Assembly: GCA_023898745.1 (NCBI GenBank) | Contig: CP060237.1 | Span: forward strand, 235,718-299,717 | Direction: 5' to 3' | From: Alphaproteobacteria bacterium | GTDB lineage: Bacteria; Pseudomonadota; Alphaproteobacteria; G02398745; G023898745 | Length of the DNA stretch: 64,000 nt | Shown: positions 2-55,379 of the stretch, piece after piece | How positions within the stretch are numbered: position 1 is the first letter of the stretch | Layout: each line of letters starts with the position of its first letter | Translations under genes and position numbers: made by a program | The notes under the pieces: model-generated | Told to the model about the DNA's origin: nothing | What the model saw: only the letters and a program-made list of their open reading frames with translations | The model's database searches: none

Positions 2-862
2 GGTGATTTTAAAGAGCCTGTCTTGATGAACAAGAAAGATAATTTCATGGCAATTGTTGGGCGTGACGGGCGTGTGGTTATTTTGGATCTGCAAACCGAA
101 AAAATTATCTTTGAAAAAGATCTGGGCATGGCTATAAGTTCGAAACCCCTTATTGAAAAAAATCGTATTTACATTCAAACCGCTGGCGATATGATTTTAT
201 GTTTTGACTTCAAACAAAATAAGGAGTTGTGGACCTATAAAAACAGATATGCTTCAGGATATCGCATAGGCTCTTCACCAATTTTATACAAAGAATTTTT
301 TATCACAGGCTTTACAAATGGTGACTTTAGTCTAATTAACAAAGACACGGGGCTTCTACATTGGAACGATTCGCTGTATGGGCAAATCAACTTAATGGGA
401 AACAACTTACTGCATGTCACATCACAACCTATTGTTGAGAATGATATTTTATATGCCGTGGGAACGGACAATAATTTATCTGCATACAAGGCGTATGATG
501 GGCAAGTGATATGGAGCAAGAATATTAGTAGCAATAGAGATTTGCTTTTAAATGGTGACTATATTTATATCTTAGATAAATACGGCATGCTTGTATCTGT
601 GAATAAGAAAGATGGTAATATTCGCATGGTGACAAACCTCAATCCGAAACTTGACACACCTATCAACTTTACGAATATGGTGTGTGTAAATGATCGTATT
701 TTTGTTTCCTCACTGCATAAATATTCATCCAAAGGTGCATTTATTGATCCAAAGACTGGTGCTATAGAGCGCGTTGTAGATTTTGGTGAAAAAGTGCATG
801 ATATTGGCGTTGCTGGCGAACAATTGTTTGCGTTAACGAAGGGTAATTTGTATGTCCTGTAG
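2..862 (+). CDS. bamB: PQQ-like beta-propeller protein, BamB-like outer-membrane assembly factor; 5' end truncated by the window edge, the ORF is open to position 2
   Basis: Repeated beta-propeller blade motifs (IYIQTAGDMILCFDFKQNKELWTY, LYAVGTDNNLSAYKAYDGQVIWSK, IYILDKYGMLVSVNKKDGNIRMV). It lies immediately upstream of der, which is the conserved bamB-der arrangement. Confidence 0.5.
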   Translation, partial: GDFKEPVLMNKKDNFMAIVGRDGRVVILDLQTEKIIFEKDLGMAISSKPLIEKNRIYIQTAGDMILCFDFKQNKELWTYKNRYASGYRIGSSPILYKEFFITGFTNGDFSLINKDTGLLHWNDSLYGQINLMGNNLLHVTSQPIVENDILYAVGTDNNLSAYKAYDGQVIWSKNISSNRDLLLNGDYIYILDKYGMLVSVNKKDGNIRMVTNLNPKLDTPINFTNMVCVNDRIFVSSLHKYSSKGAFIDPKTGAIERVVDFGEKVHDIGVAGEQLFALTKGNLYVL

Positions 863-980
863 ATCACGCGCATCGTCACAGACCGTCGTCATGGCGAGCG
901 AAGCGTTGCCATCCATGGATCACCACGAAGCTCAGCTCCTCGTGAGGACGATATACTGTGCACTCCTCATGATGACGACC
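863..980. repeat. Modular GC-rich hairpin repeat cluster (GTCATGGCGAGCG / GGCCATCCAT / GGATCACCACG...CTCGTGA modules)
   Basis: cgtcatggcgagcgaagcgttgccatccatggatcaccacgaagctcagctcctcgtgaggacg; the same modules recur in more than 25 intergenic regions. Confidence 0.75.
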
Positions 981-1008
981 ACCTTCGATACGGAAAAGGG
1001 GACAGTCC

Positions 1009-2340
1009 ATGATTAAAATCGCACTCGTAGGACGTGCCAACGTCGGAAAGTCCACACTATTCAACTGCTTTTCTAAAGAGAAATCTGCCATTGTGTATGA
1101 CCAACCTGGTGTAACGCGCGATCCAAAAAAAGAATTGATTCAATGGGGTGACTATTCATTCTATTTGACAGACACGCCGGGCATAGATCTTTATGAAGAT
1201 GAACTCTTAAAGCGACAAGTTTTAAAACGCATTGAAGAAGAAGCTGAAGACGCAGATTATTTGTGGCTCATGGTTGATGGGACAGTCGGATTAACAAGCA
1301 TTGATCGTGATGTCGTAAAATTAATTCGCAAATTTGGCAAGCCTGTCATTGTATTGGTTAATAAGGTTGATCGCAAAGATTTTGATGAGCTAACATTTTA
1401 TGAGCTAGGGTTTGAGCATGTAGTTGCCGTTTCCGCAGAACATCAAATTGGATTGCACGATATTTTTGCCCCTATGGACGCGCAACGTTTGATGGAGGGC
1501 TCTATAGCTGAGCGACGCAGTCAGATTGCTGTGCTAGGTCGTCCAAATGCTGGAAAATCCACGTTTATTAATGCCATTTTAGGTGAAGATCGACAACTCA
1601 CAGGAGATATGCCTGGATTAACACGCGAGTCCGTGAAATATCCATTTGATTTTCATGGCGAAGCCTATGAATTGATTGATACGGCTGGTATCAAGAAAAA
1701 AGCTAAGACCAAAGAAGACTTAGAGAAATTAAGTCTACGCGCAAGCTTTGATACGCTTCAGTTTGCTGAGTGTATTATTTATATGATTGATGGCAAGCAA
1801 GTTTCACAATTTGGACTGGATCAGCAGGATTTAGCTATGATTTACAAAATCCTAGAAGAAGGGCGTTGCCTTGTTGTATGTATGAGCAAATGGGACGAAG
1901 TTAAAGATCCAAAGATGGTACTCGATACTGTGAAACATACGCTTATGATTAAAGGGTTTTCATATGTTCCTATTGTGCCAATTTCATCGTTTGAACGCTT
2001 TGGTGTGAGTAAAATTTTTGATGTTGTAAAAAGAATGCTGCAGTTTTGGAATAAACGCATCAGCACAGGTAAATTAAACTCCTGGTTAAAAGAGAGCGCT
2101 TTAGAAGTTGCCCCACCCTCTCATGGCGGCCGCGCTGTAAAATTGAAGTTTGCTACACAAGTCAAAACACGTCCACCGCGCATATGTGTGTTTGTGAACG
2201 TTGTTCACGATGGATTGAAAAAATATGAGCGCTATTTGATGAATCGCTTTCATAAAGAGTTTGGATATGAGGGTGTACCTGTAAGAGTGTTTTTTAGAGC
2301 AACGAAAAATCCATATGTTGCTGAGCAAACATCATCTTAA
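1009..2340 (+). CDS. der: Ribosome-biogenesis GTPase Der/EngA, with tandem GTP-binding domains
   Basis: Two P-loops (GRANVGKST and GRPNAGKST), DTPG/DTAG and NKVD/SKWD motifs; 443 aa, full length. Confidence 0.93.
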   Translation: MIKIALVGRANVGKSTLFNCFSKEKSAIVYDQPGVTRDPKKELIQWGDYSFYLTDTPGIDLYEDELLKRQVLKRIEEEAEDADYLWLMVDGTVGLTSIDRDVVKLIRKFGKPVIVLVNKVDRKDFDELTFYELGFEHVVAVSAEHQIGLHDIFAPMDAQRLMEGSIAERRSQIAVLGRPNAGKSTFINAILGEDRQLTGDMPGLTRESVKYPFDFHGEAYELIDTAGIKKKAKTKEDLEKLSLRASFDTLQFAECIIYMIDGKQVSQFGLDQQDLAMIYKILEEGRCLVVCMSKWDEVKDPKMVLDTVKHTLMIKGFSYVPIVPISSFERFGVSKIFDVVKRMLQFWNKRISTGKLNSWLKESALEVAPPSHGGRAVKLKFATQVKTRPPRICVFVNVVHDGLKKYERYLMNRFHKEFGYEGVPVRVFFRATKNPYVAEQTSS

Positions 2341-2355
2341 ACAGAGCAAATTTGA

Positions 2356-3012
2356 TCACTTGGTAAAATGAAACCCAAAAAACAACCGAACAATAGATAA
2401 CTTTGAGTCAAACTTACAATCACATGTTCTATTTTTCCACGCACCTATGGGATGAATATAATATGATTTAATGCCTCTGACTTCTCCAGCAAAAGAACAC
2501 CAATCCGTTAGGCGATAACGGGCACCAATACCACCTAAAAATCCGACGTTAAAAACCAAAGAACATATACCTGCTATATTTCCAGCAAAAAGCGTTGCGG
2601 GATTAACAACGCCATACACACTCCAACGCTCATTAAAAAATTTACCGAAGCGAAATTGTGTTACACCTAGATCGCCCTCTATACCGCCTTTTAACAGAGT
2701 AACTTTCTCTGTACCTTGCACATCTTTAGGATGAAGAGTTGCCCAGTTAAAACCTGTAACTCGGCCAAGGTAGCTGTAATGAATTGAACCATGTGCACTC
2801 AAAAAATTCCATTCACAAAAATAAGTAGACCTTGAAAAAAACTGATACCCAGCTTCAAAACCAACACCACCTATGAAACCTTCTTCATCTTTGTATGATT
2901 CTTGAACTGCAGTAGACGGATGAATTTTAACAGTTGATCCATCAGCCTTTATAAAACCCTTGCCAAAATTTCCTAAAAGATCAAACGTAAAATTTCCCGC
3001 GAATAAAAACAT
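2356..3012 (-). CDS. Hypothetical Gly/aromatic-rich protein with an MFLF N-terminal leader; candidate outer-membrane or surface protein, downstream of rpsI
   Basis: Uninterrupted 218-aa ORF 4 bp downstream of rpsI on the same strand. Composition is rich in G/F/Y/W alternating segments, like beta-barrel OMPs. Paralog-like to the 4124..5068 and 12511..13311 ORFs. Confidence 0.5.
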   Translation of the reverse strand: MFLFAGNFTFDLLGNFGKGFIKADGSTVKIHPSTAVQESYKDEEGFIGGVGFEAGYQFFSRSTYFCEWNFLSAHGSIHYSYLGRVTGFNWATLHPKDVQGTEKVTLLKGGIEGDLGVTQFRFGKFFNERWSVYGVVNPATLFAGNIAGICSLVFNVGFLGGIGARYRLTDWCSFAGEVRGIKSYYIHPIGAWKNRTCDCKFDSKLSIVRLFFGFHFTK

Positions 3013-3015
3013 AAA

Positions 3016-3444
3016 TTAACGCTTGGAGAATTGGAACTTCTTACGTGCTTTTGGACGACCAGGTTTTTTACGCTCAACCTCACGTGCGTCACGCGTCAAG
3101 AAACCAGCTTGCTTCAATGTTGGGCGAAGCTCTGGGTTGAATAACGAAATGGCTTTGCTAATACCATGCCTCAAGGCACCAGCTTGACCAGATAATCCAC
3201 CACCTTCAATTGTTGCAAACACATCAAACTCTTGGTTTACACGCTCAAATGGTTGGTGAACCATCATTTGCAAAGTAGGGCGTACAAAATACTTATGCGC
3301 TTCTTGACCATTCACGCTCATTTTGCCTGTGCCTTTTTTGATCCAAACACGCGCAATGGAGCTTTTTCTTTTTCCTGTTGCATAACTTCTGCCAAGTTTG
3401 TCGAGCTTAGGTGCTGCAATTTCTTGATTATCAGATAAACTCAT
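3016..3444 (-). CDS. rpsI: 30S ribosomal protein S9
   Basis: [22 protein letters not shown] motif; the C-terminus ends in KR; it overlaps the rplM stop in an ATGA arrangement. Confidence 0.95.
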
Positions 3445-3926
3445 TATTGATCTCTCCTTATGTTCTTCTCATTCATCATAGCAACATTCAAAACTTCTGG
3501 TTTTTGCGCTACATGTGGATGATCTGCACCTGTGTAAACTTTCAGGTTACGCATTAATTGATTTCTCAATGGGCCTTTGGATAGCATTCTTTCAACAGCT
3601 TTTTTTACAAGAGTTTCAGGATGATGCCCTTGAAGACGCTCCTTCGCGTTCTCTTCCTTAATTCCGCCAGGATAACCTGTGTGACGATAGAATACTTTAT
3701 CTTCCATCTTTTTGCCTGTAAGATGCACTTTATCTGCATTAATTACAACAACATTATCACCACAATCCATGTGCGGTGTATAAGATGGTTTGTGCTTACC
3801 TTTAAGGCGCATTGCAATCACGCTTGCCATTCTGCCCAACACGAGATTCTCAGCGTCTACAAGCACCCATTTCTTGTCGATTTCTTTCGCTTTCAATGAC
3901 TTTGTATGCATTATTATAATTTTCAT
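3444..3926 (-). CDS. rplM: 50S ribosomal protein L13; an alternative start at Met6 (position 3911) is possible
   Basis: [47 protein letters not shown] is typical of L13; rplM-rpsI operon order. Confidence 0.93.
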
Positions 3927-4031
3927 ATGCGAGTACTAAGTCAGTATAGAGCATTTTATGTAAAGCATGCAAGAAAATTTAGAGACGTCATTATAGGGTG
4001 CAAATCTATCCCGTTATCACGAACGGCAAGT

Positions 4032-4115
4032 CAACCTCGTCATCACGAGGAGCTTCGCTCCGTGGTGATCCATAATAGATTGCCACACGCTCTAACGAGC
4101 GCTCGCAATGACGGA
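4032..4115. repeat. Modular hairpin repeat (GTCATCACGAGGAGC..GGTGATCCAT + GATTGCCACG..CGCTCGCAATGACG modules)
   Basis: Direct match to modules at 8628..8786, 24163..24242 and 27700..27762. Confidence 0.75.
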
Positions 4116-4123
4116 GTCCTACG

Positions 4124-5068
4124 TTACTCGTCGCGGGCTGAGCTGTGAAATTCTATCCCAAGAGATATTCGCTGACGAATTGTTCTTGAGGACAAAAACG
4201 GCTTAAATATAGGCTCTAGCTCTTTAATATCATCTAGTCCTTTTACATCCTTCGCCCATCGTTTCGCTAGGGCATAGGCCGCATAATAACCATCTAGATA
4301 ACTAATCTGAACATTATATTCTGCTACAAATGATGTTCGAGGAGAAAGTCTATACGATGCTCCAGCACCTAAACCAAAACCTAAACCTATAAATGGAAAC
4401 GTATATCCAAAACTTTTAAAAATAGCATTCACATCTTGAGTCGTAAAAGGCTCTTTGCGCGCAGCCTCCCAACGAAAACCACCACTTGAAAGAGTAGTTG
4501 TTTTCTCGGGAATAGTTCGTTTACTCTTATAAATCCGATAGATTCCATAAAGATCCTTAAGATTTGTTGACATCAATACACATGGGGAGACGCTGCCATA
4601 AAATGACCATTTGTCTGAATAAATCTTTCCCACTCTAAAGTTAGTGAAAAACGAAAAACCTTTAGAAAAGTCAAAAAATCCCCAATCTAAAAACCACTTT
4701 TGAGATAACATAAAGCGATATCCTAAACCGCAACCAACACTCCAATTAAAAAAATTCGACCATTTACCTAGCTGTTCCAAGGTCTTTTCGGCATTATCCA
4801 GCACAGTCATTGCCATTTCTTTTTCCTCTGCATTAGTACTCACGGCTGCAGAAGCGCGCGCTAAGTCTATACCCGTCTTAGACAAAAAATCATCGAGCGT
4901 TAAATCAACGTTAAATTTCTTTTTTAACTCTTCTTCAAAATCTTTTTTAAATTTGTTATCTGATGAAAGAGCTGAGGAAGGCCCAAACTTACGCGGCCCT
5001 TTGTGAAGCCCACCAAAGTTTCCGTTAACACCAAAATAAAACCCGTTTGCAAATAAAGTGAATAACAT
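4124..5068 (-). CDS. Hypothetical protein with an MLFTLF N-terminal leader and a W/F/Y/G-rich C-terminal half; candidate envelope beta-barrel-like protein
   Basis: 314-aa ORF. The N-terminal leader motif is shared with about 15 other ORFs. The C-terminal half has alternating aromatic/Gly composition (WSNFFNWSVGCGLGYRF...). Confidence 0.5.
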   Translation of the reverse strand: MLFTLFANGFYFGVNGNFGGLHKGPRKFGPSSALSSDNKFKKDFEEELKKKFNVDLTLDDFLSKTGIDLARASAAVSTNAEEKEMAMTVLDNAEKTLEQLGKWSNFFNWSVGCGLGYRFMLSQKWFLDWGFFDFSKGFSFFTNFRVGKIYSDKWSFYGSVSPCVLMSTNLKDLYGIYRIYKSKRTIPEKTTTLSSGGFRWEAARKEPFTTQDVNAIFKSFGYTFPFIGLGFGLGAGASYRLSPRTSFVAEYNVQISYLDGYYAAYALAKRWAKDVKGLDDIKELEPIFKPFLSSRTIRQRISLGIEFHSSARDE

Positions 5069-5104
5069 AAAATTTCAAATTTCCCTCTTTTTTTTTTCAA
5101 TGTA

Positions 5105-5515
5105 ACAGAAAACATTATAGATCACCAAGTTGCTATGCTCCTCGTGATCTGATTCATCCCCACGAATTTTCTAAAATCCAAAAAAGTCTTAAACGCTTAA
5201 CCATGCAAGCTTTTCTTCTAGAGAAATTGATAGAAAAATATAAGGACAACGACCGTCATGGCGAGATTTTCGAAAGAAAATCTTGGCCATCCATCCGTCT
5301 TCGCAAATTTTGCCTTCAGCAAAATTTAGCTACGACGAGATTGGTCGAGTCGAAGCGTGTGAAGTGGATGTCTCGCCGAAGCTCTTTAGAGCGTAGGCGG
5401 ACACCTCCACGGATCACCACGTCGCTGCGCTCCTCGTGATGACGCCTGCGCATCGTGGGGATGAATCAGCTCGTGATGACGGAAATAGTAGATTCTCGTG
5501 ATGACAGAAGTGGTA
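5105..5515. repeat. Composite repeat region: ~125-bp element C, ~120-bp element A, and hairpin modules plus CTCGTGATGAC iterations
   Basis: Element C (5142..5265) recurs inverted at 25485..25615 and 43365..43495. Element A (5282..5410) recurs at 7015..7140, 21176..21310, 36262..36400 and 53995..54125. Confidence 0.8.
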
Positions 5516-5571
5516 GATTTTTCAAATAAAAAGTCCTATACTGCCTATGTAAGGATATAAAAAATAATATT

Positions 5572-5862
5572 ATGGCTAATCATAAAAGTGCGGAAAAAAT
5601 GATCCGCAAGATCACAAAAAGAACGGCTGTGAATAAGAATAGAAGATCTTTGGTGAAGACGGCTGTGAAAAAAGCTGAGGTTGCATTAGGTATAAGAGTT
5701 GGTTCTACAGCTCCAGCTTTGGCGCCAACTGAAGCTAAGCCAGTTTTGGTAGCAGCAGAAAGGCAACTGATGCGCGCAGCACAAAAAGGTGCGATCAACA
5801 AAAAAGCAGCATCTCGCAAAGTTTCAAGATTGAACAAGAAGTTAAAAACTCTCGCGTCTTAA
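5572..5862 (+). CDS. rpsT: 30S ribosomal protein S20
   Basis: MANHKSAEKMIRKITKRTAVNKNRRS... basic 96-aa protein typical of S20. Confidence 0.9.
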   Translation: MANHKSAEKMIRKITKRTAVNKNRRSLVKTAVKKAEVALGIRVGSTAPALAPTEAKPVLVAAERQLMRAAQKGAINKKAASRKVSRLNKKLKTLAS

Positions 5863-5865
5863 CAC

Positions 5866-5948
5866 ATAACGTCATCACGAGGCACGAAGTTGCTGTGGTG
5901 ATCCATGGATGGCCACGCCACCTTCGCTGAAGCTGCGGCCGGCTCGCC
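5866..5948. repeat. Modular hairpin repeat downstream of rpsT
   Basis: cgtcatcacgaggcacgaagttgctgtggtgatccatggatggccacgccaccttcgctgaagctgcggccggctcgccatgacg. Confidence 0.7.
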
Positions 5949-5978
5949 ATGACGACCTTCATTAGAAAGAGGTCCAAT

Positions 5979-6986
5979 ATGTCGCAAAATTCTCCCGAAA
6001 TCGCAATCATCGGCGCAGGCCCTGTTGGATTATTCTCTGTTTATGCCAATGGCATGATGGGGTATCGCTCTTACCTCTTTGATTTCCAAGAAGAACTCGG
6101 TGGCCAATGTGTCTTATATAAAGACAAGCCAATTTACGACATCCCCGCCTACCCCAAAATCACAGCAGAAAAATTGGTGCGCAAGCTGAAAAAACAGCAC
6201 AAACCCTTTCGTCCTGAATATCGCTTAAAAGAGCAGGTTCTGGATATTCAAAAAACTGATGATGGATTCACGTTAACAACGGACAAAGACACAGTCAACG
6301 TAAAAGCTGTTGTGATTGCTGGTGGTATCGGGGCATTTGGCCCGCGCAAACCGCCATTGTCCAACATTGAAGAATTTGAAGATAAATCTGTGTTTTATCA
6401 TGTGTCAGATAAATCTATGTTTAAAGATAAAAATATTGTCATCGCCGGCGGAGGTGATTCTGCCGTCGATTGGGCGTTAGAATTATCTAAAATTGCTGGG
6501 CAAGTATATTTAGTACACCGACGCACAAAGTTTCGTTGCCACGATTCTAGTGAGCAAGCGTTAGATAAATTGATTGAATCTGGGAAAGTGATCTTAAAAG
6601 CACCTGGGCAAGTGAAAGCATTACATGGAAATGATGGTGTTTTAACGCAAGTGGATGTGCAAAACATTCAAGATGATAGCATTGATGCGATAAAAGCAGA
6701 TTTCTTTTTGCCTTTTTTTGGATTATCTGCTGATTTGGGGCCTATTTTGAAATGGGATTTGGATTTGAAAAAAGATATGATCCCTGTTGATGTTACAACC
6801 ATGCGCTCACCTAAAGAGGGTATTTACGCCATTGGCGACATTGCACATTATGACAATAAGCAAAAATTAATTGCGATTGGATTTACAGAAGCATTTACTG
6901 CTGCTCACAATATTCGTGCTTATTTGAATCCTGGAAAAGTGTTTCACTTTGAGTATTCTACGACGAAGGGTGTGAAGGAGTTGTAG
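5979..6986 (+). CDS. Thioredoxin-reductase-like ferredoxin-NADP+ reductase (FNR type 2, YumC/FenR family)
   Basis: N-terminal FAD Rossmann fold IAIIGAGPVGLFSVYA and a second NAD(P) Rossmann fold IVIAGGGDSAVDWAL. The start is chosen at MSQNSPE, which is preceded by AAGAGG; the longer ORF start at 5949 is less likely. Confidence 0.85.
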   Translation: MSQNSPEIAIIGAGPVGLFSVYANGMMGYRSYLFDFQEELGGQCVLYKDKPIYDIPAYPKITAEKLVRKLKKQHKPFRPEYRLKEQVLDIQKTDDGFTLTTDKDTVNVKAVVIAGGIGAFGPRKPPLSNIEEFEDKSVFYHVSDKSMFKDKNIVIAGGGDSAVDWALELSKIAGQVYLVHRRTKFRCHDSSEQALDKLIESGKVILKAPGQVKALHGNDGVLTQVDVQNIQDDSIDAIKADFFLPFFGLSADLGPILKWDLDLKKDMIPVDVTTMRSPKEGIYAIGDIAHYDNKQKLIAIGFTEAFTAAHNIRAYLNPGKVFHFEYSTTKGVKEL

Positions 6987-6987
6987 A

Positions 6988-7400
6988 AGCTTCGTCATGG
7001 CGAGCGAAGCGTGGCCATCCATCCGTCTTCGCTAATTTTGCCAAAGGCAAAATTTAGCTACGACGAGATTGGTCGAGTCGGAGCGTGCGGAGTGGATGTC
7101 TCGCCAAAGCTCAAAGAGCGTAGGCGGGCTATCTCTCTATGGATCACCACGTCGCTCCGCTCCTCGTGATGACGGCTCGACATTCGTCATTGCGAGATTT
7201 TCGAAAGAAAATCGTGGCCATCCATGTTTTTCTTGATCACCACGCCTTGCTACGCAAGGCTCGTGATGACGGTAAATTTTGTGCTCCTCGTGATGACGGT
7301 AAATTTTGCGCTCCTCGTGATGACGATACGCTGTATGCCCTTCGTGATGACGATATCATCGAGCGGCCCACCACGTTCCAAATTCTCCTGTCAAAACCAA
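6988..7400. repeat. Composite repeat region: hairpin modules, element A copy (7015..7140), and four iterations of CTCGTGATGACG at ~27-bp period (7258..7355)
   Basis: Direct sequence repetition; it generates the spurious ORFs 7139..7408 and 7224..7478. Confidence 0.8.
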
Positions 7401-8540
7401 CTCTGTAATCGCCCATACCAATGCATCCATGCGATCTGCTGCACGGCCAGGTTTGTAGCTAGTGAGTTGTGTTTCTAACGCATTGAAATATTTACGGTGA
7501 ACCACCCTACCCTGCTCATATAACGCAATCACAGGTTCTGCACGTGTTATTTTGCTGCGCTTTGCTACAACTTCTTTGATGGGAAGTTCAGCACCATTGT
7601 GAATGTGAAACAATTCTGTAATCAGCGAACCACCTTGATTGACTTCTACAACCGCAGCATCTGCTTGGTATTTGTGATACGCGTAGCATGCTTTTTGCAC
7701 CCACTGGCATGGAGTGTAATTTCCGCTGAGATCTTCCAAAACATACACATTACCTGCATGAGATAATCCACATACAATGATGCCTGTTTCACATCCATCT
7801 TTGGTGACAGCTGGATCTAAACCAATAACAATACGTTTCAATTCAGGAACTTTTGGATTGTGCTGAAAGTATGATTGTTTAAATAATGAAAACTCATCTT
7901 CATGAAATAACTCACCATATAACTCCTGCGCACCCAAACGCGTTTTTGCATAATGCGTTTCCATATTTTGGATAAATCGCGCACTAAGATGTTTCTTGTT
8001 TTCAAACGTGGAGCCTGTTGTCACAACTGTGCCACGCAGGCGCTGCAAATCATGCAGAAGTTTTATGGGTTTTGGAGTTGTTGTGATGATGCATTTGGGT
8101 TGAGCTGACATGCGAAGTGTTAACTCAACTTGTGTCCATAATTCCTCTGGATATTTGAATTTTGCTAACTCATCAATCCACACTGTATCAAACTGCGGAC
8201 CTCTCAAGGTTTCATACTGATCGCCACCAAATAGCTGAATTCTAATATCAGATTTTTTCCACGTAATGAGACCTTCAGTTTTGCGATAATGATATGCTTT
8301 TGGCATATTCGAACTACTGAGCAAACCGCTCACACCTGCTACCATTACACGATGCGCTTCTTTGATAGTTTGACCAATTAGGGCAATATTTTTAGCCTTA
8401 CCCTGCTCCATCAATGACACAATACTTTCTGCACCTGTTTTGGTTTTACCAAAACCACGCCCGGCCATAATAAGCCAGACATAAAAATCATTGGGCAACC
8501 TTTGCTTATCGCGTGGCTGCCACCTTTGCGCAAATGTCAT
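7356..8540 (-). CDS. Phage/GTA-type terminase large subunit; orphan, with no other phage genes nearby
   Basis: Walker A motif WLIMAGRGFGKTKTGAE as in alphaproteobacterial GTA g2 terminases. The C-terminal half reads as a nuclease-like domain (GLDPAVTKDG...). 394 aa with no internal stops. Confidence 0.8.
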   Translation of the reverse strand: MTFAQRWQPRDKQRLPNDFYVWLIMAGRGFGKTKTGAESIVSLMEQGKAKNIALIGQTIKEAHRVMVAGVSGLLSSSNMPKAYHYRKTEGLITWKKSDIRIQLFGGDQYETLRGPQFDTVWIDELAKFKYPEELWTQVELTLRMSAQPKCIITTTPKPIKLLHDLQRLRGTVVTTGSTFENKKHLSARFIQNMETHYAKTRLGAQELYGELFHEDEFSLFKQSYFQHNPKVPELKRIVIGLDPAVTKDGCETGIIVCGLSHAGNVYVLEDLSGNYTPCQWVQKACYAYHKYQADAAVVEVNQGGSLITELFHIHNGAELPIKEVVAKRSKITRAEPVIALYEQGRVVHRKYFNALETQLTSYKPGRAADRMDALVWAITELVLTGEFGTWWAAR

Positions 8541-8627: not shown

Positions 8628-8786
8628 TGACGTCATCACGAGCCTTGTGTAGCAAGGCGTGGTGATCCATCACAGATTGCCACGCGTTCTTACGAACGCT
8701 CGCAATGACGGGCTCAGAGCCGTCATCACGAGGAGCTAAGCGACGCGGTGATCCATGGATGACCACACTCCGCTTGCCATGACGAA
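8628..8786. repeat. Modular hairpin repeat cluster between terminase and hisS
   Basis: cgtcatcacgagccttgtgtagcaaggcgtggtgatccat ... gattgccacgcgttcttacgaacgctcgcaatgacg ... ccatgacgaac. Confidence 0.75.
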
Positions 8787-8854
8787 CTCGATAGTTTTTG
8801 ACAACCCAACCACAAAAAAATCATAATACACTATACAATCTTCAACTTTTTCCT

Positions 8855-10081
8855 ATGCAGCCTATTCGTGGTTTTCGAGACCTTTTGCAAAACGATTTCA
8901 AAACATTTTCCGAAATCAAAACAATATGCGAAACGATTGCAAAGCTATATGGATATGAAGGCATTGAACTACCTATCGTAGAATCACTTGATGTGTTTAA
9001 GCGCACGTTGGGTGATGTCAGTGATGTGGTGAATAAAGAAATGTTCACACTAACAGATCGTCATGGGGAAATATTAGCCCTTCGACCTGAGGCAACTGCT
9101 AGTGTCGTGCGCGCATTAATTTCGAATAAGCTTACACAAGATTTGCCGCAAAAGTTTTTCTATCAAGGGCCGATGTTTCGTTATGAGCGTCCGCAAAAAG
9201 GTCGATATCGTCAGTTTTATCAATTTGGCATTGAGGCATTTGGTGAGAAAGATCCATATATTGATGCTGAGATTATTTTGCTGGCACATCGCATTCTTGA
9301 AGATTTAGGTGTGAAAGGATTTAAGTTTGAGATCAATACCATTGGTGATGTTGCATCACGAAAAGCTTACAATGATGCGCTGATTAAATATCTTACCCCG
9401 CAAAAAAACGAACTGTCTCAAGATAGCCAAGAGAGATTGCTTCGAAATCCTTTGCGTATTTTGGATTCTAAAGATATGCAGGATCAAAAGATTTTGATGA
9501 ATGCACCAAAGTTCGAGGGTTATTTAAATGAAGAATCTAAGGCGTTTTTTGAATCCGTTTGTGGATATTTGGATGCTTTTGATGTGACGTATCACGTGAA
9601 CTCCCGTTTGGTGCGTGGATTAGATTATTACACACATACGGTGTTTGAATTTACGCATGAAGATTTGGGTGCACAGTCAGCCTTTTTAGCTGGCGGACGA
9701 TACGATGGCTTGGTGTCCACCATGGGTGGGCCGGATATTCCTGGCATTGGATTTGCGATGGGGATAGACCGCGTGATGTTTTTAAGTGAAGTGGGTGATG
9801 TTAATGCGCCTGTTATTGTGATTCCGTTTTCTGATGATTGCTTAGCATATGCGATGGATGTATGCGAAACGTTACGTGATAACGGTGTGATGTGTGAAGT
9901 GTCGTTTAAAGGCAAGTTATCTAAAGATTTGAAATATGCTGAAAAACGTCAGGCTGAGTATGCTTTGTTGATTGGTGAAAATGAAGTTGAAGCGTCTACT
10001 GTGACGCTGAAATTTTTGGGGAGTGATGAGGGGAATCAGACAAAAAGTGTGGGTGAAATTCTTGATTTTCTAGCCTTGTAA
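8855..10081 (+). CDS. hisS: Histidine--tRNA ligase
   Basis: Class II aaRS motifs (FRYERPQKGRYRQFYQFG; GGGRYDGL) and a C-terminal anticodon-binding domain. The start is taken at MQPIRGFRDLL; the ORF's upstream extension is unlikely. Confidence 0.93.
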   Translation: MQPIRGFRDLLQNDFKTFSEIKTICETIAKLYGYEGIELPIVESLDVFKRTLGDVSDVVNKEMFTLTDRHGEILALRPEATASVVRALISNKLTQDLPQKFFYQGPMFRYERPQKGRYRQFYQFGIEAFGEKDPYIDAEIILLAHRILEDLGVKGFKFEINTIGDVASRKAYNDALIKYLTPQKNELSQDSQERLLRNPLRILDSKDMQDQKILMNAPKFEGYLNEESKAFFESVCGYLDAFDVTYHVNSRLVRGLDYYTHTVFEFTHEDLGAQSAFLAGGRYDGLVSTMGGPDIPGIGFAMGIDRVMFLSEVGDVNAPVIVIPFSDDCLAYAMDVCETLRDNGVMCEVSFKGKLSKDLKYAEKRQAEYALLIGENEVEASTVTLKFLGSDEGNQTKSVGEILDFLAL

Positions 10082-13643: not shown

Positions 13644-14837
13644 ATGTTTTTTCTTTTTGCCCAACATCTCGTATTTGACGATGAAGTCGAGTTATTTTGC
13701 AATGAAATTGTCACCACGATGTCCAAAGAAATGGGGATTAAGAACAAAAAAATCCCCGTTTATCTCATGGATACCGAAGATGTGAATGCAGCAGCGGCAG
13801 GGCATGGCATCTTGCTAATTCACACAGGGCTCATTGCAGAATGTAAAAATGCAGATGAATTTATAGGTGTGCTTGCGCACGAACTTGGGCATATTCAAAA
13901 AGCGCATACGTTTTATTTTTACCAGGCTGGCAAAGCTATGAACATTGCTTTGAGCGCTGGATTTGGTCTTGGTCTTATCTTGGCGCCTCTTACAGGCGGT
14001 CTTTCGCTGCTTGTCTTACCAATTATGGGTGCAGGAGGTGCACAAAGCTCTATTTTATCTTACATGCGTGTTCATGAGTTTGAGGCAGATCAAATTGCTG
14101 TGCAAACTCTCAAAAAAATGAATTGGCCCACAGATGGACTACGCACATTTTTGCAACGCCTCAAAGAACATGATTATTTAATTGAACTGACTGGACTAAC
14201 GACGCATCCCTTAAGTAGTGACCGCATCAGAAGAATTGAAGAAATGTCAAGAGGCGCAAAAGGCACCCTCAGTTCTGATATACATAAAAAATTTTCACGC
14301 ATTCGCGCAAAAGTTATGGGCTACATGCGGAAAAACGAAAAAACTGAAGACTTATATGAAAAAACACAGGCTTTGTATGTGCGCCGTGATTTTGCAAACG
14401 CCTTAAAAACAATCGATCAACTGCTAGAAAAAGATAAAAATGATGTTTTTTATAAAGAAATGAAGGCTGACATTTTGTTTTTAAAGGGTGATATTGAAAA
14501 TGCACACATTATATATAAAGAGATTGCAGAGCAAAATAAAGATCTTAAATATGTACCCATGAAAATTGTGTCCTGCGTCATATTATTAAAGTCTGACCTT
14601 GATGCAGGATTGGCAATCTTGGCGCATGCACGCGCTAAAGAACGCGCCTCGCCTTATTTATGGCATTTAACAGGACATATATATAAGTTAAAGGGCGATA
14701 TCAAGACAATGTGGTTTTGTCGTTGTCAGGCTGCGTTTTTAGCGAAAGATATGACATTTGTGAAAAAGCATATTGATAAGGCAGATACGGATGTTTTTGT
14801 TGACTTATATAAAGAGATGAAAGAGCTTATACGTTGA
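13644..14837 (+). CDS. M48-family zinc metallopeptidase with C-terminal TPR-like repeats (BepA/YfgC-like)
   Basis: HEXXH zinc motif HELGHIQKAH, and tandem helical repeats in the C-terminal half. The start is taken at MFFLFAQHLVF (ATG at 13644) rather than the upstream ORF Met. Confidence 0.75.
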   Translation: MFFLFAQHLVFDDEVELFCNEIVTTMSKEMGIKNKKIPVYLMDTEDVNAAAAGHGILLIHTGLIAECKNADEFIGVLAHELGHIQKAHTFYFYQAGKAMNIALSAGFGLGLILAPLTGGLSLLVLPIMGAGGAQSSILSYMRVHEFEADQIAVQTLKKMNWPTDGLRTFLQRLKEHDYLIELTGLTTHPLSSDRIRRIEEMSRGAKGTLSSDIHKKFSRIRAKVMGYMRKNEKTEDLYEKTQALYVRRDFANALKTIDQLLEKDKNDVFYKEMKADILFLKGDIENAHIIYKEIAEQNKDLKYVPMKIVSCVILLKSDLDAGLAILAHARAKERASPYLWHLTGHIYKLKGDIKTMWFCRCQAAFLAKDMTFVKKHIDKADTDVFVDLYKEMKELIR

Positions 14838-16080
14838 GCTCAGGTCTTACGCGGCCACTTCTATCTGTGAGCGCTTGAAAAATTTTTACTAATTCAGGTC
14901 TTTCTTTGGGATCAAAACTTAGCATACGTTTGCAGAGCATTTGAATTTGGAAAGAATAATCTGGAATATATCCCTTTATAAAATCAAAATCCTTTCGTTC
15001 TTGGATCGCTTTAGTGATATTTCTTTCCTGAAAAGGAAATTCTCCATACATCATCACAAATAAAATTACACCTAATGAATATACATCACACTTATAATTG
15101 TACTCAGCGTCATTACTCAGAACCTCTGGCGCAGCAGTCGCTTTTGTTCCTACCCTTCGAGTAAGTTTTTGCAAATCTTCAGTTTCCGAATTTGTTGAAA
15201 GTCCCCAGTCTGCTAAAACAACTCTCTCCAAAATACCACCTTCTGCGAATGTTAAAAATATATTTTCAGGCTTAATATCTCTATGGATAATTCCACGAAG
15301 ATGTGCAGTAGCTAATATACTAGTCAATTGGGCTATAGCTGTTCTCACCATATTTTCTGGCAATATTCCAGTTTCACGCTCAAATATAAACTCATACAGA
15401 TCCATAGAATATCTAGGCATTACAAGAAGTGCTTGGAGAGGATCTAGATGCACTCTTAATGTCTGAACATTATAAGGGTGATCCTGCAAAAAAAGCTGGT
15501 TTTTAATTTCATTCATAGTATCGCTCGTGCGTTTTAAAGCTTTCACCACATTTCCATCAATTAAATAAAGAGGATATTTACTTAGAACGTTTAATTTTTG
15601 CACGCCAGTTTGAATTAAGCGATGGGTTGTATCTTCCTCCATATCTACCGTATCAAACCCTGCATCTGTGCTAAATGTTAGATTTGGATTTGATGCAAGC
15701 ATGCGTTGACGAAACGCACCAAAACTATGTTTAAAAGCAAAAGAAAGTTTTACCCCTCCAATAAAACAAAATGCTATGAATGGATTGGGGTTATTTACAT
15801 GCTGAACGTCTATGCAGCCATCTTGGATATGAGTCAAAAAAGCTGTGGCTTTTTGATGATCAAGCTCTAGAGAGTCTAAAACTGTGAGCATTTGAGGCCT
15901 TTGAATTTCTTCTCTTTCTTGCAATGCAGCAAACTCTAAATCCAATCTTGCCTGATATTCTGTTGCAAACAATGTCGCTACTCTAGAATCTTCTTGCGTT
16001 ATAGGCACGTTAGGAATCCTTGACTGCAAAGGCACTTTTACTTGCGTATCAACAACTGTTGTTGCAACTATAAAAAACAT
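14827..16080 (-). CDS. Eukaryotic-like (Hanks-type) Ser/Thr protein kinase, paralog 1 (417 aa), N-terminus MFFIVATT
   Basis: Catalytic loop IIHRDIKPENIF, activation segment ADWGLS (a DFG variant), APE motif, and the subdomain IX/XI pattern DVYSLGVILF. Confidence 0.85.
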   Translation of the reverse strand: MFFIVATTVVDTQVKVPLQSRIPNVPITQEDSRVATLFATEYQARLDLEFAALQEREEIQRPQMLTVLDSLELDHQKATAFLTHIQDGCIDVQHVNNPNPFIAFCFIGGVKLSFAFKHSFGAFRQRMLASNPNLTFSTDAGFDTVDMEEDTTHRLIQTGVQKLNVLSKYPLYLIDGNVVKALKRTSDTMNEIKNQLFLQDHPYNVQTLRVHLDPLQALLVMPRYSMDLYEFIFERETGILPENMVRTAIAQLTSILATAHLRGIIHRDIKPENIFLTFAEGGILERVVLADWGLSTNSETEDLQKLTRRVGTKATAAPEVLSNDAEYNYKCDVYSLGVILFVMMYGEFPFQERNITKAIQERKDFDFIKGYIPDYSFQIQMLCKRMLSFDPKERPELVKIFQALTDRSGRVRPELNV

Positions 16081-16577: not shown

Positions 16578-18260
16578 TTACAGAGTTTTTGCAAAATCAT
16601 CGAGTTGTTGAGCGGTTGGTCTATCCTGTGGATGAAACTGCAACATGCGCGCTGTAAACTCCGCAATTCTTCTTGAGGTTGAACCAACAGCCAAGTTCTG
16701 AATTTGTGTACTCATATTGAAAGTTCTTCTTGCTTCCGTTGCCAATCCCATCCAGTCAGATTGTTTCATATCAGTTTTAAACGGAAACCCCAAAAATTGC
16801 ATCGCATAGAACACAATTCCGAGTGAGTAAATATCAATTGCTGGACCATAAAGCTCTGCAGATAAAATTTCAGGCGGCAAATACGCTGGTGTTCCACATC
16901 GTCTTCTAAGATTGTGAAAACCTTCATTTTCGGCATTTGCAAATCCATAATCCGCTAAAAACACATCTTCACCCTTCATAAATATATTGTCTAGTTTTAT
17001 ATCCCTGTGAAGCACTTGGTTTGAATGCAAATAATTCAAAACAGATGCTAACTGTTTTATCCATCGCACCATTGTGGCCTCAGACAGCTGTTTTCGCTGC
17101 AACATATAATTATATAAATCAGAATCACATTTTGGCATAACAAGCAAACCTCTTAATCCATCAAAAATAAATTGACCTTTAAGGCTGTGAGAATGCTTCG
17201 CCATCTTTAAATGACTTATAATCTCTGGAATCCCCCCTGAAGTAACATAAAACAACTTCTCAATAGTATCCTTAGATGTATTTATATACAACGCTTCTTT
17301 TCCATCTCTTCCTTCTCTTAATACTTTATAATCACGGGATTTTAACAGACCATAAACAGAGGAATCAAGTTCAGAAAATAATCCTTCTATATCTTCTGTT
17401 GCATTTATATCAGTGCTAAATTTAGCACTAGGATTTACAAATGTTGATATAGAATAAGAAAAGTGAGAAAACAAATCGGCAGATGTAAATAAAAGCACAA
17501 CTTTACCATCAATAGAACACGAACATGCAAAAGCTGAATGATGATCTTGATGCTCAACTCTAAAAAATGACTGAGCCGTAATTTCTATTTTTTGCTGACA
17601 TGCCCCCTGCTTAAGCACAATAAAATCTTCTTCAAACTCTATTTTCACTGACTCTCCGTCTAATTGGCGCAAAGGCCCAGAGGTTTTCAGGAATATACCG
17701 CCTTTTCCTAAAAAACGCTTTTCACTGTTAAAACGATCATGAAGTGCTTTCTCCTCTTGATCACGCTGATTACTGATAGTTTTGTACCCTTGATGCAATC
17801 CAGCCCCTTCTCGTGGTTTAAGCATATCTAATAAATGACAAGCAGAAGTTATAAGATAACCTCTGTATAACGCCATATAGTTAAGCTCTTCCATATACTT
17901 AAGTTCTTGACGTGAGTGTTTCTCTAAAATTTCAACGCTCCCCAATACAAACTGATTGTAAAAAGTCCTTATATTCAACGTCTCTTCATCAACAATTTCT
18001 TGCATTCGATCTACATGATCCTTCTCAAGCTTCGAAATTTCAGTAGCATAATCAATCGCAGGAGCTCTAAGAGCTAATATACTTTCCGGATCAAAATGCA
18101 AATGTTGTTGGTTTTCGCCAACTAAGCTCAAGGCTTTAGATTCACACCTTTTATAATCAGGAGTATTTATTGCTTTCCCTCCCAACGCCGGCCTTCTTGG
18201 AGTTGTTGGAACGCTTGAAGCGTGAACAACTTCAGCTGCATACAAAAAATCAAAAAACAT
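16578..18260 (-). CDS. Eukaryotic-like Ser/Thr protein kinase, paralog 2 (560 aa). N-terminal MFFDFLYAAE leader, then an ~330-aa domain of unknown function, then the kinase domain.
   Basis: VLHRDIKLDNIF, ADYGFA, GTPAYLPPE, DIYSLGIVFY. The N-terminal domain is paralogous to that of kinase 3 (RFLGKGGIFLK... versus RFLGKTGVFER...). Confidence 0.85.
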   Translation of the reverse strand: MFFDFLYAAEVVHASSVPTTPRRPALGGKAINTPDYKRCESKALSLVGENQQHLHFDPESILALRAPAIDYATEISKLEKDHVDRMQEIVDEETLNIRTFYNQFVLGSVEILEKHSRQELKYMEELNYMALYRGYLITSACHLLDMLKPREGAGLHQGYKTISNQRDQEEKALHDRFNSEKRFLGKGGIFLKTSGPLRQLDGESVKIEFEEDFIVLKQGACQQKIEITAQSFFRVEHQDHHSAFACSCSIDGKVVLLFTSADLFSHFSYSISTFVNPSAKFSTDINATEDIEGLFSELDSSVYGLLKSRDYKVLREGRDGKEALYINTSKDTIEKLFYVTSGGIPEIISHLKMAKHSHSLKGQFIFDGLRGLLVMPKCDSDLYNYMLQRKQLSEATMVRWIKQLASVLNYLHSNQVLHRDIKLDNIFMKGEDVFLADYGFANAENEGFHNLRRRCGTPAYLPPEILSAELYGPAIDIYSLGIVFYAMQFLGFPFKTDMKQSDWMGLATEARRTFNMSTQIQNLAVGSTSRRIAEFTARMLQFHPQDRPTAQQLDDFAKTL

Positions 18261-52708: not shown

Positions 52709-53155
52709 TTGTGTCACATGAAATCCTTCATCCCCTCTCCTGCAGCAAAACCCAAACCAACGCCAACAAAAATATCTTTTAAGGGTGAGCTAAACCTCAC
52801 CACAGATCCACACTTAGAACTTACATTTGAAATGCGACCAGAATTTGATGCGAAAGGGCGTTTATTATCACTATCTTTCATTCATGAAAATCTCACTCAC
52901 AAACATACATTTGCGATTGAAGACCCGCTTACAGAAAACAGTCCGTGTGGTGGAGTTTATAGCGATACTTTACCACTATCACACATTGCACAGGCGTATT
53001 TTAAAAATGATGACCGTGTCATTGATATCACACAAAATCTTTTGTCGGGCATAGAAAGTGGCGCGATACAATATGGTGATCTTGTATCTTACAGAGGTTA
53101 CAAAAAAGATGCTGCAAGTAAGTTTGTACAAATTTGTTTCAAAGGGAGAGTATAA
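52709..53155 (+). CDS. Hypothetical 148-aa protein, translationally coupled to the downstream ORF
   Basis: The stop TAA overlaps the next ATG (TAATG at 53153..53157). Confidence 0.4.
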   Translation: MCHMKSFIPSPAAKPKPTPTKISFKGELNLTTDPHLELTFEMRPEFDAKGRLLSLSFIHENLTHKHTFAIEDPLTENSPCGGVYSDTLPLSHIAQAYFKNDDRVIDITQNLLSGIESGAIQYGDLVSYRGYKKDAASKFVQICFKGRV

Positions 53156-53584: not shown

Positions 53585-53702
53585 CGCGGGACATCATGGC
53601 CATCCACAAGGGATCACCACGATCTGCTTCGCAGATCTCGTGATGACGACAGATATAACACTCCTCGTGATGACGAAAAATATAGCGCTCCTCGTAATGA
53701 CA
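53585..53702. repeat. Modular hairpin repeat plus three CTCGTGATGACG-type iterations
   Basis: ggatcaccacgatctgcttcgcagatctcgtgatgacgacagatataacactcctcgtgatgacgaaaaatatagcgctcctcgtaatgac. Confidence 0.75.
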
Positions 53703-53942
53703 CCCCTGCCGCCATAAACTTTTCTTAACCTTTTTCATGCTGTCCTAAAGAAAACAGGTGTTATTTTATATGAAACACAGCCTCAAGCTCAGAATGAAAC
53801 CTATGCCCCAACCTATCAATAACGAGCTAATTCCTTATAAAAGGCGCGATAAATTACTGGTGAAGTATTATATTGGATTATATGTTGTTTTAAGGGTATG
53901 TGTGGAGTTATTGAGTCGGCCGAGTATTGTTTCTTAGCGCTT

Positions 53943-55357: not shown

Positions 55358-55379
55358 CAATTTTCCCCTTCGCTCACAC

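What the first reader, a model, noticed from the sequence alone, without database searches (positions are those of the whole stretch)
7356..8540. Intact orphan GTA/phage terminase large subunit flanked on both sides by dense repeat arrays
This is a 394-aa ORF with a perfect terminase Walker A motif (AGRGFGKTKTG) and a C-terminal nuclease-like domain. No portal, capsid or other phage genes lie within the surrounding 25 kb. Its neighbours are housekeeping genes (an FNR-like gene and hisS), and it is bracketed by the 6988..7400 and 8628..8786 repeat mosaics.

In alphaproteobacteria a conserved GTA-type terminase is often retained as a vertically inherited remnant. An intact copy in a reduced genome suggests either a dispersed GTA locus or domestication.
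Basis: partly seen in the sequence, partly recalled or inferred. Interest (0 to 1): 0.5.

Follow-up and report, generated by a model that had tools for sequence, protein, structure and literature searches.

The report
Lone GTA-type terminase in endosymbiont
An intact phage-derived DNA-packaging enzyme gene sits alone among housekeeping genes of a Holosporales-like intracellular bacterium; this pattern is already described for the reduced gene-transfer-agent remnants of such endosymbionts, so it is a new example of a known thing.

Summary
The ORF at 7356..8540 (-), 394 aa, is real. It is an intact two-domain large terminase (TerL): Pfam Terminase_6N plus Terminase_6C, a confident AlphaFold model (pLDDT 92), and best PDB fold matches that are all phage TerLs. 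Every residue invariant across 57 homologues is present.

No other GTA or phage structural gene is detectable anywhere in the 64-kb window. There is no nearby integrase or tRNA, and GC3 matches the housekeeping genes. dN/dS against the closest homologue is at most about 0.14.

The protein nests with 96% bootstrap support in a clade of Holosporales/Paracaedibacteraceae-type TerLs. Most of these are also solitary among housekeeping genes. In Ca. Bealeia the portal-protease-capsid cluster has no TerL within 10 kb. George et al. 2022 (PMC9254644) already report that Holosporaceae TerL lies apart from the tail-less GTA head cluster.

The flanking repeat arrays are real but not specific to TerL. The same palindromic elements occupy 25 of 39 intergenic regions.

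Verdict: a new member of a known kind. Two points remain open. I could not test whether this genome keeps the head genes elsewhere, because the source contig is masked. My tree also does not resolve whether the clade is sister to true RcGTA g2 (32% bootstrap).

The parts
7356..8540 (-). Large terminase subunit (TerL) gene, 394 aa, intact, solitary
   Evidence: ORF. Pfam Terminase_6N plus Terminase_6C. PHROG TerL. AF2 model with pLDDT 92 and pTM 0.78. Foldseek top PDB hits are D6E, T4 gp17, Sf6 gp2 and HK97 TerLs, E 8e-17 to 2e-11.
7866..8474 (-). N-terminal ASCE ATPase (motor) domain, residues 23-225
   Evidence: Terminase_6N match. Invariant G27-R-G-x-G-K32-T33, R113/G114/Q116, D123-E124 and T153-T155. 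The profile aligns the WIDE and TTT region to the Walker B and C-motif region of T4/RB49 gp17.
8442..8465 (-). Walker A / P-loop, AGRGFGKT
   Evidence: Translation. Invariant in 57 homologues.
8169..8186 (-). Walker B plus catalytic glutamate, TVWIDE (D123, E124)
   Evidence: Translation. Aligned to the gp17 IYIDE segment.
7404..7826 (-). C-terminal RNase H-like nuclease domain, residues 239-379
   Evidence: Terminase_6C match. Invariant acidic residues D242, D270, E299, D369 and D372 are retained. Fold matches to the G20c TerL nuclease and to RuvC.
6991..7355 (.). Left mosaic of palindromic intergenic repeats, including 27-nt tandem copies at 7260-7355. It abuts the TerL stop codon. It is not TerL-specific.
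   Evidence: Best partners are distant copies, such as 55148-55285 (91% over 138 nt). RNA fold z-score is -7.2.
8630..8786 (.). Right mosaic of the same repeat family, in the divergent TerL-hisS intergenic region. It is not TerL-specific.
   Evidence: RNA fold z-score is -3.35.

Best explanation
The gene encodes a functional large terminase of the lineage carried by Holosporales-type (Holosporaceae/Paracaedibacteraceae-like) alphaproteobacterial endosymbionts. In this lineage a reduced, apparently tail-less, GTA-like head module is retained and TerL typically sits as a singlet away from the other head genes.

Mechanism, inferred from the TerL family: an N-terminal P-loop ATPase (Walker A K32/T33, Walker B D123, catalytic E124, coupling motif T153-155) assembles on the portal vertex of a procapsid and pumps dsDNA in. 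The C-terminal RNase H-fold nuclease (D242, E299, D369/D372) cuts the DNA when the head is full.

Shown here:
- the domain architecture and the fold;
- conservation of all invariant residues;
- purifying selection and host-like composition;
- membership in the endosymbiont TerL clade;
- the solitary state here and in most relatives.

Inferred:
- portal, protease and capsid genes lie elsewhere in this genome;
- TerL works with those genes.

The flanking repeats are unrelated genome-wide intergenic palindromic elements.
For: Identity as TerL.

Intact motifs: every column invariant across 24 and 57 homologues is kept.

Long residence and selection: GC 0.42 and GC3 0.35 fall within the housekeeping range of 0.30-0.38. 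Against the closest homologue (L001, 64% aa identity), pN is 0.25 and pS is 0.71 (saturated), so dN/dS is at most about 0.14.

No prophage hallmarks: no integrase and no other structural genes in 64 kb, and the nearest tRNA is 13 kb away.

Clade: the NJ bootstrap is 96% for the Holosporales-type clade including the window, with the window nested inside it rather than basal.

The solitary state is the rule in that clade. Only 3 of the roughly 40 loci outside the full-cluster GTA clade and the prophage-like clade (L010, L013, L044) have portal, protease or capsid within 10 kb. The three closest relatives (L001, L095, L096/97) also show no head genes on their short contigs.

Dispersal in one genome: in the complete Ca. 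Bealeia genome the portal-protease-capsid-adaptor cluster has no TerL within 10 kb, yet a Bealeia TerL exists (P0031).

Literature: George et al. [quoted passage not shown] They also report that head genes are conserved under purifying selection and that tails are missing. Shakya et al. 2017 report that Rickettsiales and Rhodospirillales carry only small clusters, mostly singletons.
Against: Head genes could not be searched for in the rest of this genome. The source MAG contig (953 kb, identified through a 100%-identical RuvB) is masked in the context tools and absent from genome contigs.

The GTA-plus-Holosporales sister grouping has only 32% bootstrap. Identity to true GTA g2 proteins (40-44%) is about the same as identity to phage and prophage TerLs (36-45%). 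GTA ancestry, as opposed to generic phage ancestry, therefore rests on context in relatives and on the literature.

No TerS-like gene lies next to TerL. No CtrA box or clear promoter is seen upstream.

The window's subclade (387-394 aa) lacks the N-terminal extension of other members.

No particles have been seen in any Holosporaceae.
Confidence: 0.68

Rival explanations
1. Domesticated stand-alone TerL. The head genes have been lost in this lineage, and the ATPase-nuclease is kept for a non-packaging job such as DNA processing, repair, defence or host interaction.
For: The gene is intact and under purifying selection. No head genes were seen in 64 kb here or on the contigs of the three closest relatives. 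The subclade has a shortened N-terminus. No TerS is adjacent.
Against: The contigs of the close relatives are only 2.7-6.9 kb, so absence of head genes there means little. In better-sampled members of the same clade the head genes exist, either at another locus (Bealeia) or nearby (L010, L013, L044). No TerL is known to me that works without a portal and capsid (my own knowledge of the family). All motor-coupling motifs are conserved, as expected for a packaging enzyme.
Confidence: 0.14
2. TerL works with the capsid genes of a different, non-GTA prophage resident elsewhere in the genome. On this reading it is a displaced prophage gene, not a GTA-lineage gene.
For: TerL identity to phage TerLs (36-41%) is close to its identity to GTA g2 (40-44%). 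The sister relationship to GTA g2 is unresolved (32%). Shakya et al. argue that small clusters may be viral.
Against: There is 96% support for a clade made of endosymbiont TerLs that track the host lineage. Composition is ameliorated. George et al. found no GTA proteins in intact prophage regions, and found intact prophages in only three of the surveyed taxa, none of them Holosporaceae.
Confidence: 0.1
3. A neutral relic of a decayed prophage that simply has not yet been disrupted.
For: The gene is solitary, with no partner genes nearby. The genome region is repeat-rich and rearranged.
Against: It is a 394-aa open frame with all invariant residues kept, despite about 36% amino-acid divergence and saturated synonymous sites relative to the nearest homologue (dN/dS at most 0.14). 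Orthologues are intact across a deep clade. GC3 is host-like.
Confidence: 0.04
4. TerL is cargo of a mobile unit bounded by the flanking inverted repeat arrays, or was recently acquired through them.
For: Nested inverted repeats link the two flanks: 61 nt at 84%, 37 nt at 97%, and 32 nt at 88%.
Against: Each flank matches distant copies much better than it matches the other flank, for example 138 nt at 91% with 55148-55285 and 183 nt at 86% with 53971-54150. The motifs occur in 25 of 39 intergenic regions. No transposase is present, and composition is host-like.
Confidence: 0.03

Closest known systems
Singlet large terminase of the reduced GTA of Holosporaceae endosymbionts (Cytomitobacter, Nesciobacter and relatives; George et al. 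2022, PMC9254644)
   Same: Both are TerL encoded apart from the head cluster, in a host-associated alphaproteobacterium. Both are intact and under purifying selection, with no tail genes recognisable. The window protein nests in the Holosporales-type TerL clade (96%).
   Different: This genome's head cluster has not been seen. The window's subclade is a long branch (64% identity or less to anything in the databases) with a shorter N-terminus. The host organism is labelled only 'MAG: Alphaproteobacteria bacterium'.
RcGTA g2 (rcc01683)-type TerL of full alphaproteobacterial GTA head-tail clusters (for example L078 Pseudochrobactrum, L047, L080, L083)
   Same: Same Pfam architecture, 40-44% identity over the full length, and the same invariant motifs.
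   Different: Those genes are the second gene of a contiguous g1-g15 cluster, whereas this one is solitary. The sister relationship is unresolved (32% bootstrap).
GTA 'small clusters' and singletons of Rickettsiales and Rhodospirillales (Shakya et al. 2017, PMC5721377; Christensen & Serbus 2020 as cited in PMC9254644)
   Same: Scattered single GTA homologues in deep-branching alphaproteobacteria, with little conservation of flanking genes.
   Different: Shakya et al. found small clusters more often associated with viral genes or an integrase than large clusters (45 of 383 near an integrase). None is present here.
Structurally solved phage TerLs (D6E 5oe8, T4 gp17 3cpe/3ezk, Sf6 gp2 4idh, HK97 6z6d)
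   Same: Two-domain ATPase plus RNase H-like nuclease fold. Foldseek E 8e-17 to 2e-11 over the full length. Walker B and C-motif align to gp17.
   Different: Only 10-16% sequence identity. Those enzymes are encoded in complete phage genomes next to portal genes.

Membership tests
Large terminase subunit (Terminase_6N/6C type) | N-terminal ASCE ATPase with Walker A, Walker B plus catalytic Glu, and a coupling (C) motif | tested here: met
   Pfam E 5e-21. AGRGFGKT, WIDE and TTT are all invariant and present and align to gp17.
Large terminase subunit (Terminase_6N/6C type) | C-terminal RNase H-fold nuclease with conserved acidic residues | tested here: met
   Pfam Terminase_6C E 2.3e-11. D242, D270, E299, D369 and D372 are invariant and present. 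Fold hits to TerL nucleases and RuvC. The catalytic role of each residue is inferred from conservation and was not mapped on a solved structure.
Large terminase subunit (Terminase_6N/6C type) | Full-length two-domain TerL fold | tested here: met
   AF2 pLDDT 92 and pTM 0.78. The top 26 PDB matches are all large terminases.
RcGTA-like GTA terminase (g2) | Groups with g2 of bona fide GTA clusters to the exclusion of phage and prophage TerLs | tested here: inconclusive
   The NJ topology puts the Holosporales-type clade sister to the GTA clade, but with 32% bootstrap. No ML program was available.
RcGTA-like GTA terminase (g2) | Encoded within a g1-g15 head-tail cluster | tested here: not met
   No g3-g14 homologue anywhere in the 64 kb.
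RcGTA-like GTA terminase (g2) | No integration, replication or lysogeny genes; host-like composition; purifying selection | tested here: met
RcGTA-like GTA terminase (g2) | Particles that package random host DNA | not testable with these tools
   This needs experiments. No particles were seen by TEM in Holosporaceae (George et al.).
Reduced GTA of Holosporaceae/Holosporales endosymbionts with singlet TerL | TerL belongs to the Holosporales-type TerL clade | tested here: met
   96% bootstrap, nested in the clade. The best named hits are Holosporales, Paracaedibacteraceae, Bealeia, Odyssella and Finniella.
Reduced GTA of Holosporaceae/Holosporales endosymbionts with singlet TerL | TerL located away from the head cluster | tested here: met
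   No head gene within 7.3 kb on one side and 55 kb on the other. An extra roughly 3 kb beyond the right edge (L093) also has none.
Reduced GTA of Holosporaceae/Holosporales endosymbionts with singlet TerL | A portal-protease-capsid-adaptor cluster is present elsewhere in the same genome | not testable with these tools
   The source contig is masked or absent. The arrangement was shown only in a relative, Ca. Bealeia.
Reduced GTA of Holosporaceae/Holosporales endosymbionts with singlet TerL | The host is an obligate intracellular Holosporales bacterium | tested here: inconclusive
   The RuvB 100% match is labelled only 'MAG: Alphaproteobacteria bacterium'. Three eukaryote-like Ser/Thr kinases and an adjacent LRR protein suggest host association. 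No 16S rRNA gene is in the window.
Prophage or prophage remnant | Integrase or att/tRNA junction, further phage genes, atypical composition | tested here: not met
   None was found. The only phage-family hit elsewhere is a small phrog_1544-like gene 45 kb away.

The most novel reading that the evidence does not exclude
In this long-branch subclade (window, L001, L095, L096/97; TerL of 387-394 aa without the usual N-terminal extension) the capsid, portal and protease genes may have been lost. TerL would then be maintained alone by selection as a chromosomal ATP-driven nuclease or translocase with a non-packaging cellular role. That would be the first domesticated stand-alone large terminase.
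Probability: 0.1. Interest if true: 0.65.

Novelty: new member of a known kind. Interest (0 to 1): 0.22.

Why it matters
The finding adds one more, rather divergent, example to the published observation that Holosporales and Rickettsiales endosymbionts keep GTA-like head and packaging genes under selection despite genome reduction, with TerL split from the head cluster. The open biological question is what a tail-less capsid plus an active DNA-packaging motor does inside an obligate endosymbiont: gene exchange, protein or DNA delivery to the host, or storage. This window does not advance that question. Its value would rise only if the complete genome turned out to lack capsid genes, which would make this TerL a stand-alone domesticated enzyme.

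Tried and rejected
- A phmmer search of TerL against PDB sequences gave nothing. The profile search hit only the gp17 Walker B region, so I used structure prediction plus Foldseek instead.
- I looked for a CtrA box (TTAA-N7-TTAA) upstream of TerL. There is none, and the 5 sites in the window equal chance expectation.
- The promoter scan found no sigma-70-like site for TerL.
- I tested whether the flanking inverted repeats define a mobile unit and rejected the idea.
- I tried to locate the source genome. The genome-contig scan gave at best 49% identity. RuvB revealed a 100% match on an NCBI MAG contig of 953 kb, but that record is masked for context look-up. Logan contigs from SRR12358676 extend the window by only about 3 kb.
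- The context of Bealeia TerL P0031 is not on record.
- hhalign of unknown window ORFs against my GTA family alignments timed out. I replaced it with hmmsearch --max, which found nothing significant.
- The first Biopython bootstrap run timed out and was redone with numpy distances.
- The George et al. supplements and the Christensen & Serbus 2020 chapter are not held.
- Micro-synteny: only L007 shares der-bamB near TerL, which is too weak to count as evidence.

Full report
**Observation**

The minus-strand ORF 7356..8540 (ATG start, 394 aa) exists as described. It matches Pfam Terminase_6N (E 5e-21, residues 23-225) and Terminase_6C (E 2.3e-11, residues 239-379). It also matches PHROG large-terminase families (E 1e-30 to 3e-25). 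The Walker A stretch AGRGFGKT is at nt 8442-8465 and the Walker B/catalytic stretch TVWIDE at nt 8169-8186.

An AlphaFold2 model built on 57 homologues is confident (mean pLDDT 92, pTM 0.78). Its best PDB matches are all full-length phage large terminases: D6E, PhiV-1, T4 gp17, Sf6 gp2 and HK97, with E 8e-17 to 2e-11. A profile of the family aligns the WIDE...TTT segment to the Walker B and C-motif segment of T4/RB49 gp17.

In alignments of 24 and 57 homologues, every invariant column is retained in the window protein:
- ATPase: G27, R28, G29, G31, K32, T33, R113, G114, Q116, D123, E124, T153-T155.
- Nuclease: D242, D270, E299, N301, D369, D372.

The 'disrupted catalytic residues' refutation condition is therefore not met.

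**Surroundings**

Pfam scans of all ORFs of at least 120 aa show housekeeping genes and likely effectors:
- bamB, der, rpsI, rplM, an OMP, and an FNR/TrxR-like oxidoreductase at 5949-6986;
- hisS at 8798-10081;
- three eukaryote-like Ser/Thr kinases;
- prs, rpe, tig, dnaB, dacC-like, ruvC, corC-like, surA-like, tpiA, ruvB, ftsW/rodA, dksA, marR, tamB, a Lon N-terminal-domain protein and tyrS.

For comparison I took a canonical RcGTA-like g1-g14 cluster from Pseudochrobactrum (L078). Pfam verified it as portal, S78 protease, HK97 capsid, connector, DUF2460, BR0599 hub and NlpC/P60. tblastn with these proteins found only TerL in the window. HMMs I built for g3-g14 from 7-23 homologues each gave no window hit at E<=0.01. 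With filters off, none was better than E=0.02. A PHROG scan of ten unknown ORFs gave no structural hit.

The nearest tRNA is 13 kb away, and no integrase is present. TerL GC (0.42) and GC3 (0.35) match the housekeeping genes, whose GC3 is 0.30-0.38. The 'complete prophage nearby' condition is not met within the window or within about 3 kb beyond its right edge.

**The repeats**

The left array spans 6991-7355. It ends exactly at the TerL stop codon and includes 27-nt tandem copies at 7260-7355. The right array spans 8630-8786. Both are strongly self-complementary, with RNA-fold z-scores of -7.2 and -3.35.

They belong to a family that fills the intergenic space of the whole window:
- CTCGTGATGACGG occurs 36 times against 0.03 expected.
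- CGTGGCCATCCAT occurs 45 times against 0.7 expected.
- 25 of 39 intergenic regions carry the motifs, at 28 times the density seen in coding sequence.

Each TerL flank matches distant copies far better than it matches the opposite flank. Examples are 138 nt at 91% with 55148-55285 and 183 nt at 86% with 53971-54150. The bracketing is therefore real but carries no information about TerL.

**Relatives**

The closest proteins in 5.8 billion clusters are three 387-aa metagenomic TerLs at 64%, 59% and 57% identity. After those come hundreds at 44-50% identity. Those that carry names are labelled Holosporales, Paracaedibacteraceae, Ca. Bealeia, Ca. Odyssella, Ca. Finniella, or simply 'Alphaproteobacteria bacterium'.

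An NJ tree gave these bootstrap values (378 columns, Kimura distances, 300 replicates):

| Grouping | Bootstrap |
|---|---|
| Holosporales-type clade including the window (nested, not basal) | 96% |
| Window + L001 | 100% |
| Clade of g2 genes from full GTA clusters | 100% |
| Sister grouping of the Holosporales-type and GTA clades | 32% |

Identity to GTA g2 (40-44%) is about the same as identity to prophage-like TerLs (39-45%) and to deposited phage TerLs (36-41%). Membership in the endosymbiont clade is therefore solid. Specific GTA ancestry is not resolved by my data.

**The solitary state is the norm in this clade**

Among the roughly 40 fetched loci that fall outside the full-cluster GTA clade and the prophage-like clade, only L010, L013 and L044 have portal, protease or capsid within 10 kb, and in rearranged orders. 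All the others have TerL alone among unrelated housekeeping genes. Neighbours are not conserved. The three closest relatives (L001, L095, L096/97) also show no head genes, but their contigs are short.

Conversely, in the complete genome of Ca. Bealeia paramacronuclearis the portal-protease-capsid-connector cluster has no TerL within 10 kb, while a Bealeia TerL exists (P0031). The same TerL-less cluster occurs in MAG L086.

**Selection**

Against L001 (387 codons), pN is 0.246 and pS is 0.709, which is near saturation. This gives dN/dS of at most about 0.14. The value is an upper bound and indicates purifying selection.

**Literature**

George et al. 2022 (PMC9254644) describe this situation. 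Holosporaceae and Rickettsiales endosymbionts retain GTA head and portal genes without recognisable tails. [quoted passage not shown] Head-related domains, terminase included, are under purifying selection. Transcripts were detected but no particles were seen. The function is unknown, and proposals include gene transfer, host interaction or storage.

Shakya et al. 2017 (PMC5721377) found only small clusters, mostly singletons, in Rickettsiales and Rhodospirillales, and cautioned that some may be viral.

**Source organism**

The window's RuvB is 100% identical to a protein of an NCBI 'MAG: Alphaproteobacteria bacterium' on a 953,497-bp contig. That record is masked in the context tool. It is also absent from the genome collection. 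Fragments of the same organism occur in SRA run SRR12358676. I could therefore not test whether head genes exist elsewhere in this genome. That test is what separates the 'dispersed' reading from the 'domesticated' one.

**Conclusion**

The best-supported reading (confidence about 0.68) is this. The gene is a functional DNA-packaging ATPase-nuclease of the Holosporales-type reduced GTA-like system. It was inherited within the lineage and lies apart from the head genes, which are expected elsewhere in the genome.

The rivals are:
- stand-alone domestication (about 0.14);
- partnership with an unrelated prophage elsewhere (about 0.10);
- a neutral relic (about 0.04);
- cargo of a repeat-bounded mobile unit (about 0.03).

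The finding is a new, divergent member of a published pattern, so interest is modest.

Noticed in passing
window 53134-53577 (+), with upstream ORF 52709-53155 (+): A 147-aa protein with two hydrophobic C-terminal segments hits phrog_1544 (E 3.6e-6). It is 32-36% identical (E 6e-14 and 2e-15) to the gene that directly follows a PF07486 cell-wall hydrolase, about 7 kb downstream of the GTA-like capsid gene, in Ca. Bealeia (L084 18952-19485) and in MAG L086 (18765-19283). They share the motif IISTxAGIxGSCLKDxYAFEFG. It may be a holin-like partner, and thus a second dispersed GTA-associated gene in this window. The upstream window ORF has no hydrolase domain.
   Followed up: partly
L084 13877-19485 and L086 13269-19283: Downstream of the tail-less head cluster, both genomes share the same gene order. 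First comes EamA on the opposite strand, then a 578-614-aa protein, then a 286-292-aa protein. A 121/174-aa homologous pair (38% identity), Hydrolase_2 and a 172-177-aa membrane protein follow; L086 also has an extra 255-aa ORF before that pair. The homologous pairs are 26-62% identical. None has a Pfam or NCBIfam name. These could be the divergent 'missing' tail or lysis genes of Holosporales GTAs.
   Followed up: partly
whole window; e.g. 5250-5510, 6991-7355, 8630-8786, 25400-25720, 53590-54150, 55140-55360, 59860-60050: A mosaic family of nested palindromic intergenic repeats. Units reach about 140-185 nt at 86-91% identity between copies, and some carry 27-nt tandem tails. They occupy 25 of 39 intergenic regions and create many spurious ORFs with peptides such as '...PRDDG...' and '...ITTSLRSS'.
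   Followed up: partly
window 14827-16080, 16578-18260, 18401-20104 (all -): Three consecutive genes carry eukaryote-type Ser/Thr protein kinase domains (Pkinase E 1e-29 to 3e-37). They are likely secreted effectors of a host-associated bacterium. An LRR_5 protein lies just beyond the right edge of the window (L093).
   Followed up: no
L037, L060, L067, L071 (OZ252229.1); L030, L051, L069 (OY762210.1); L070, L072 (OZ244564.1): Several long-read Dehalococcoidia MAGs carry 2-4 or more copies of a related TerL (39-44% identity to the window). Many of these copies have no GTA-type portal within 10 kb. This could be a multi-copy element or a different portal type.
   Followed up: no
L092 (MW091529.1, 'Bacteriophage sp. 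103231', 18 kb partial genome): This is the best 'phage' database hit to the window TerL (41%). It has the complete g1-g15-like GTA gene order: TerL, portal, protease, capsid, connector, tail, short tape measure, hub, peptidase, glycoside hydrolase. It groups with Pseudochrobactrum GTA g2 in the tree. It looks like a GTA cluster deposited as a phage.
   Followed up: partly
L096 155-1771 and L097 348-1313: In two ENA metagenome contigs, the 59%-identical TerL (P0002) is directly preceded by one or two PDDEXK_2 (Rpn-like recombination-promoting nuclease) genes.
   Followed up: no
L007 1493-5627 versus window 23-8540: In Holosporales MAG L007, TerL is convergent with and adjacent to der-bamB. In the window, bamB-der lie 5 kb from TerL in the same relative orientation. 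This is the only hint of shared neighbourhood among about 40 loci, and it could be chance.
   Followed up: partly
window 8798-8857: The mechanical hisS ORF starts at TTG 8798. However, a near-consensus sigma-70-like site (TTGACA-18-CATAAT, 11 of 12) occupies 8798-8827, and an in-frame ATG at 8855 precedes the conserved MQPIRGFRD N-terminus. The real hisS start is probably 8855. That would make the divergent TerL-hisS spacer 314 bp.
   Followed up: partly
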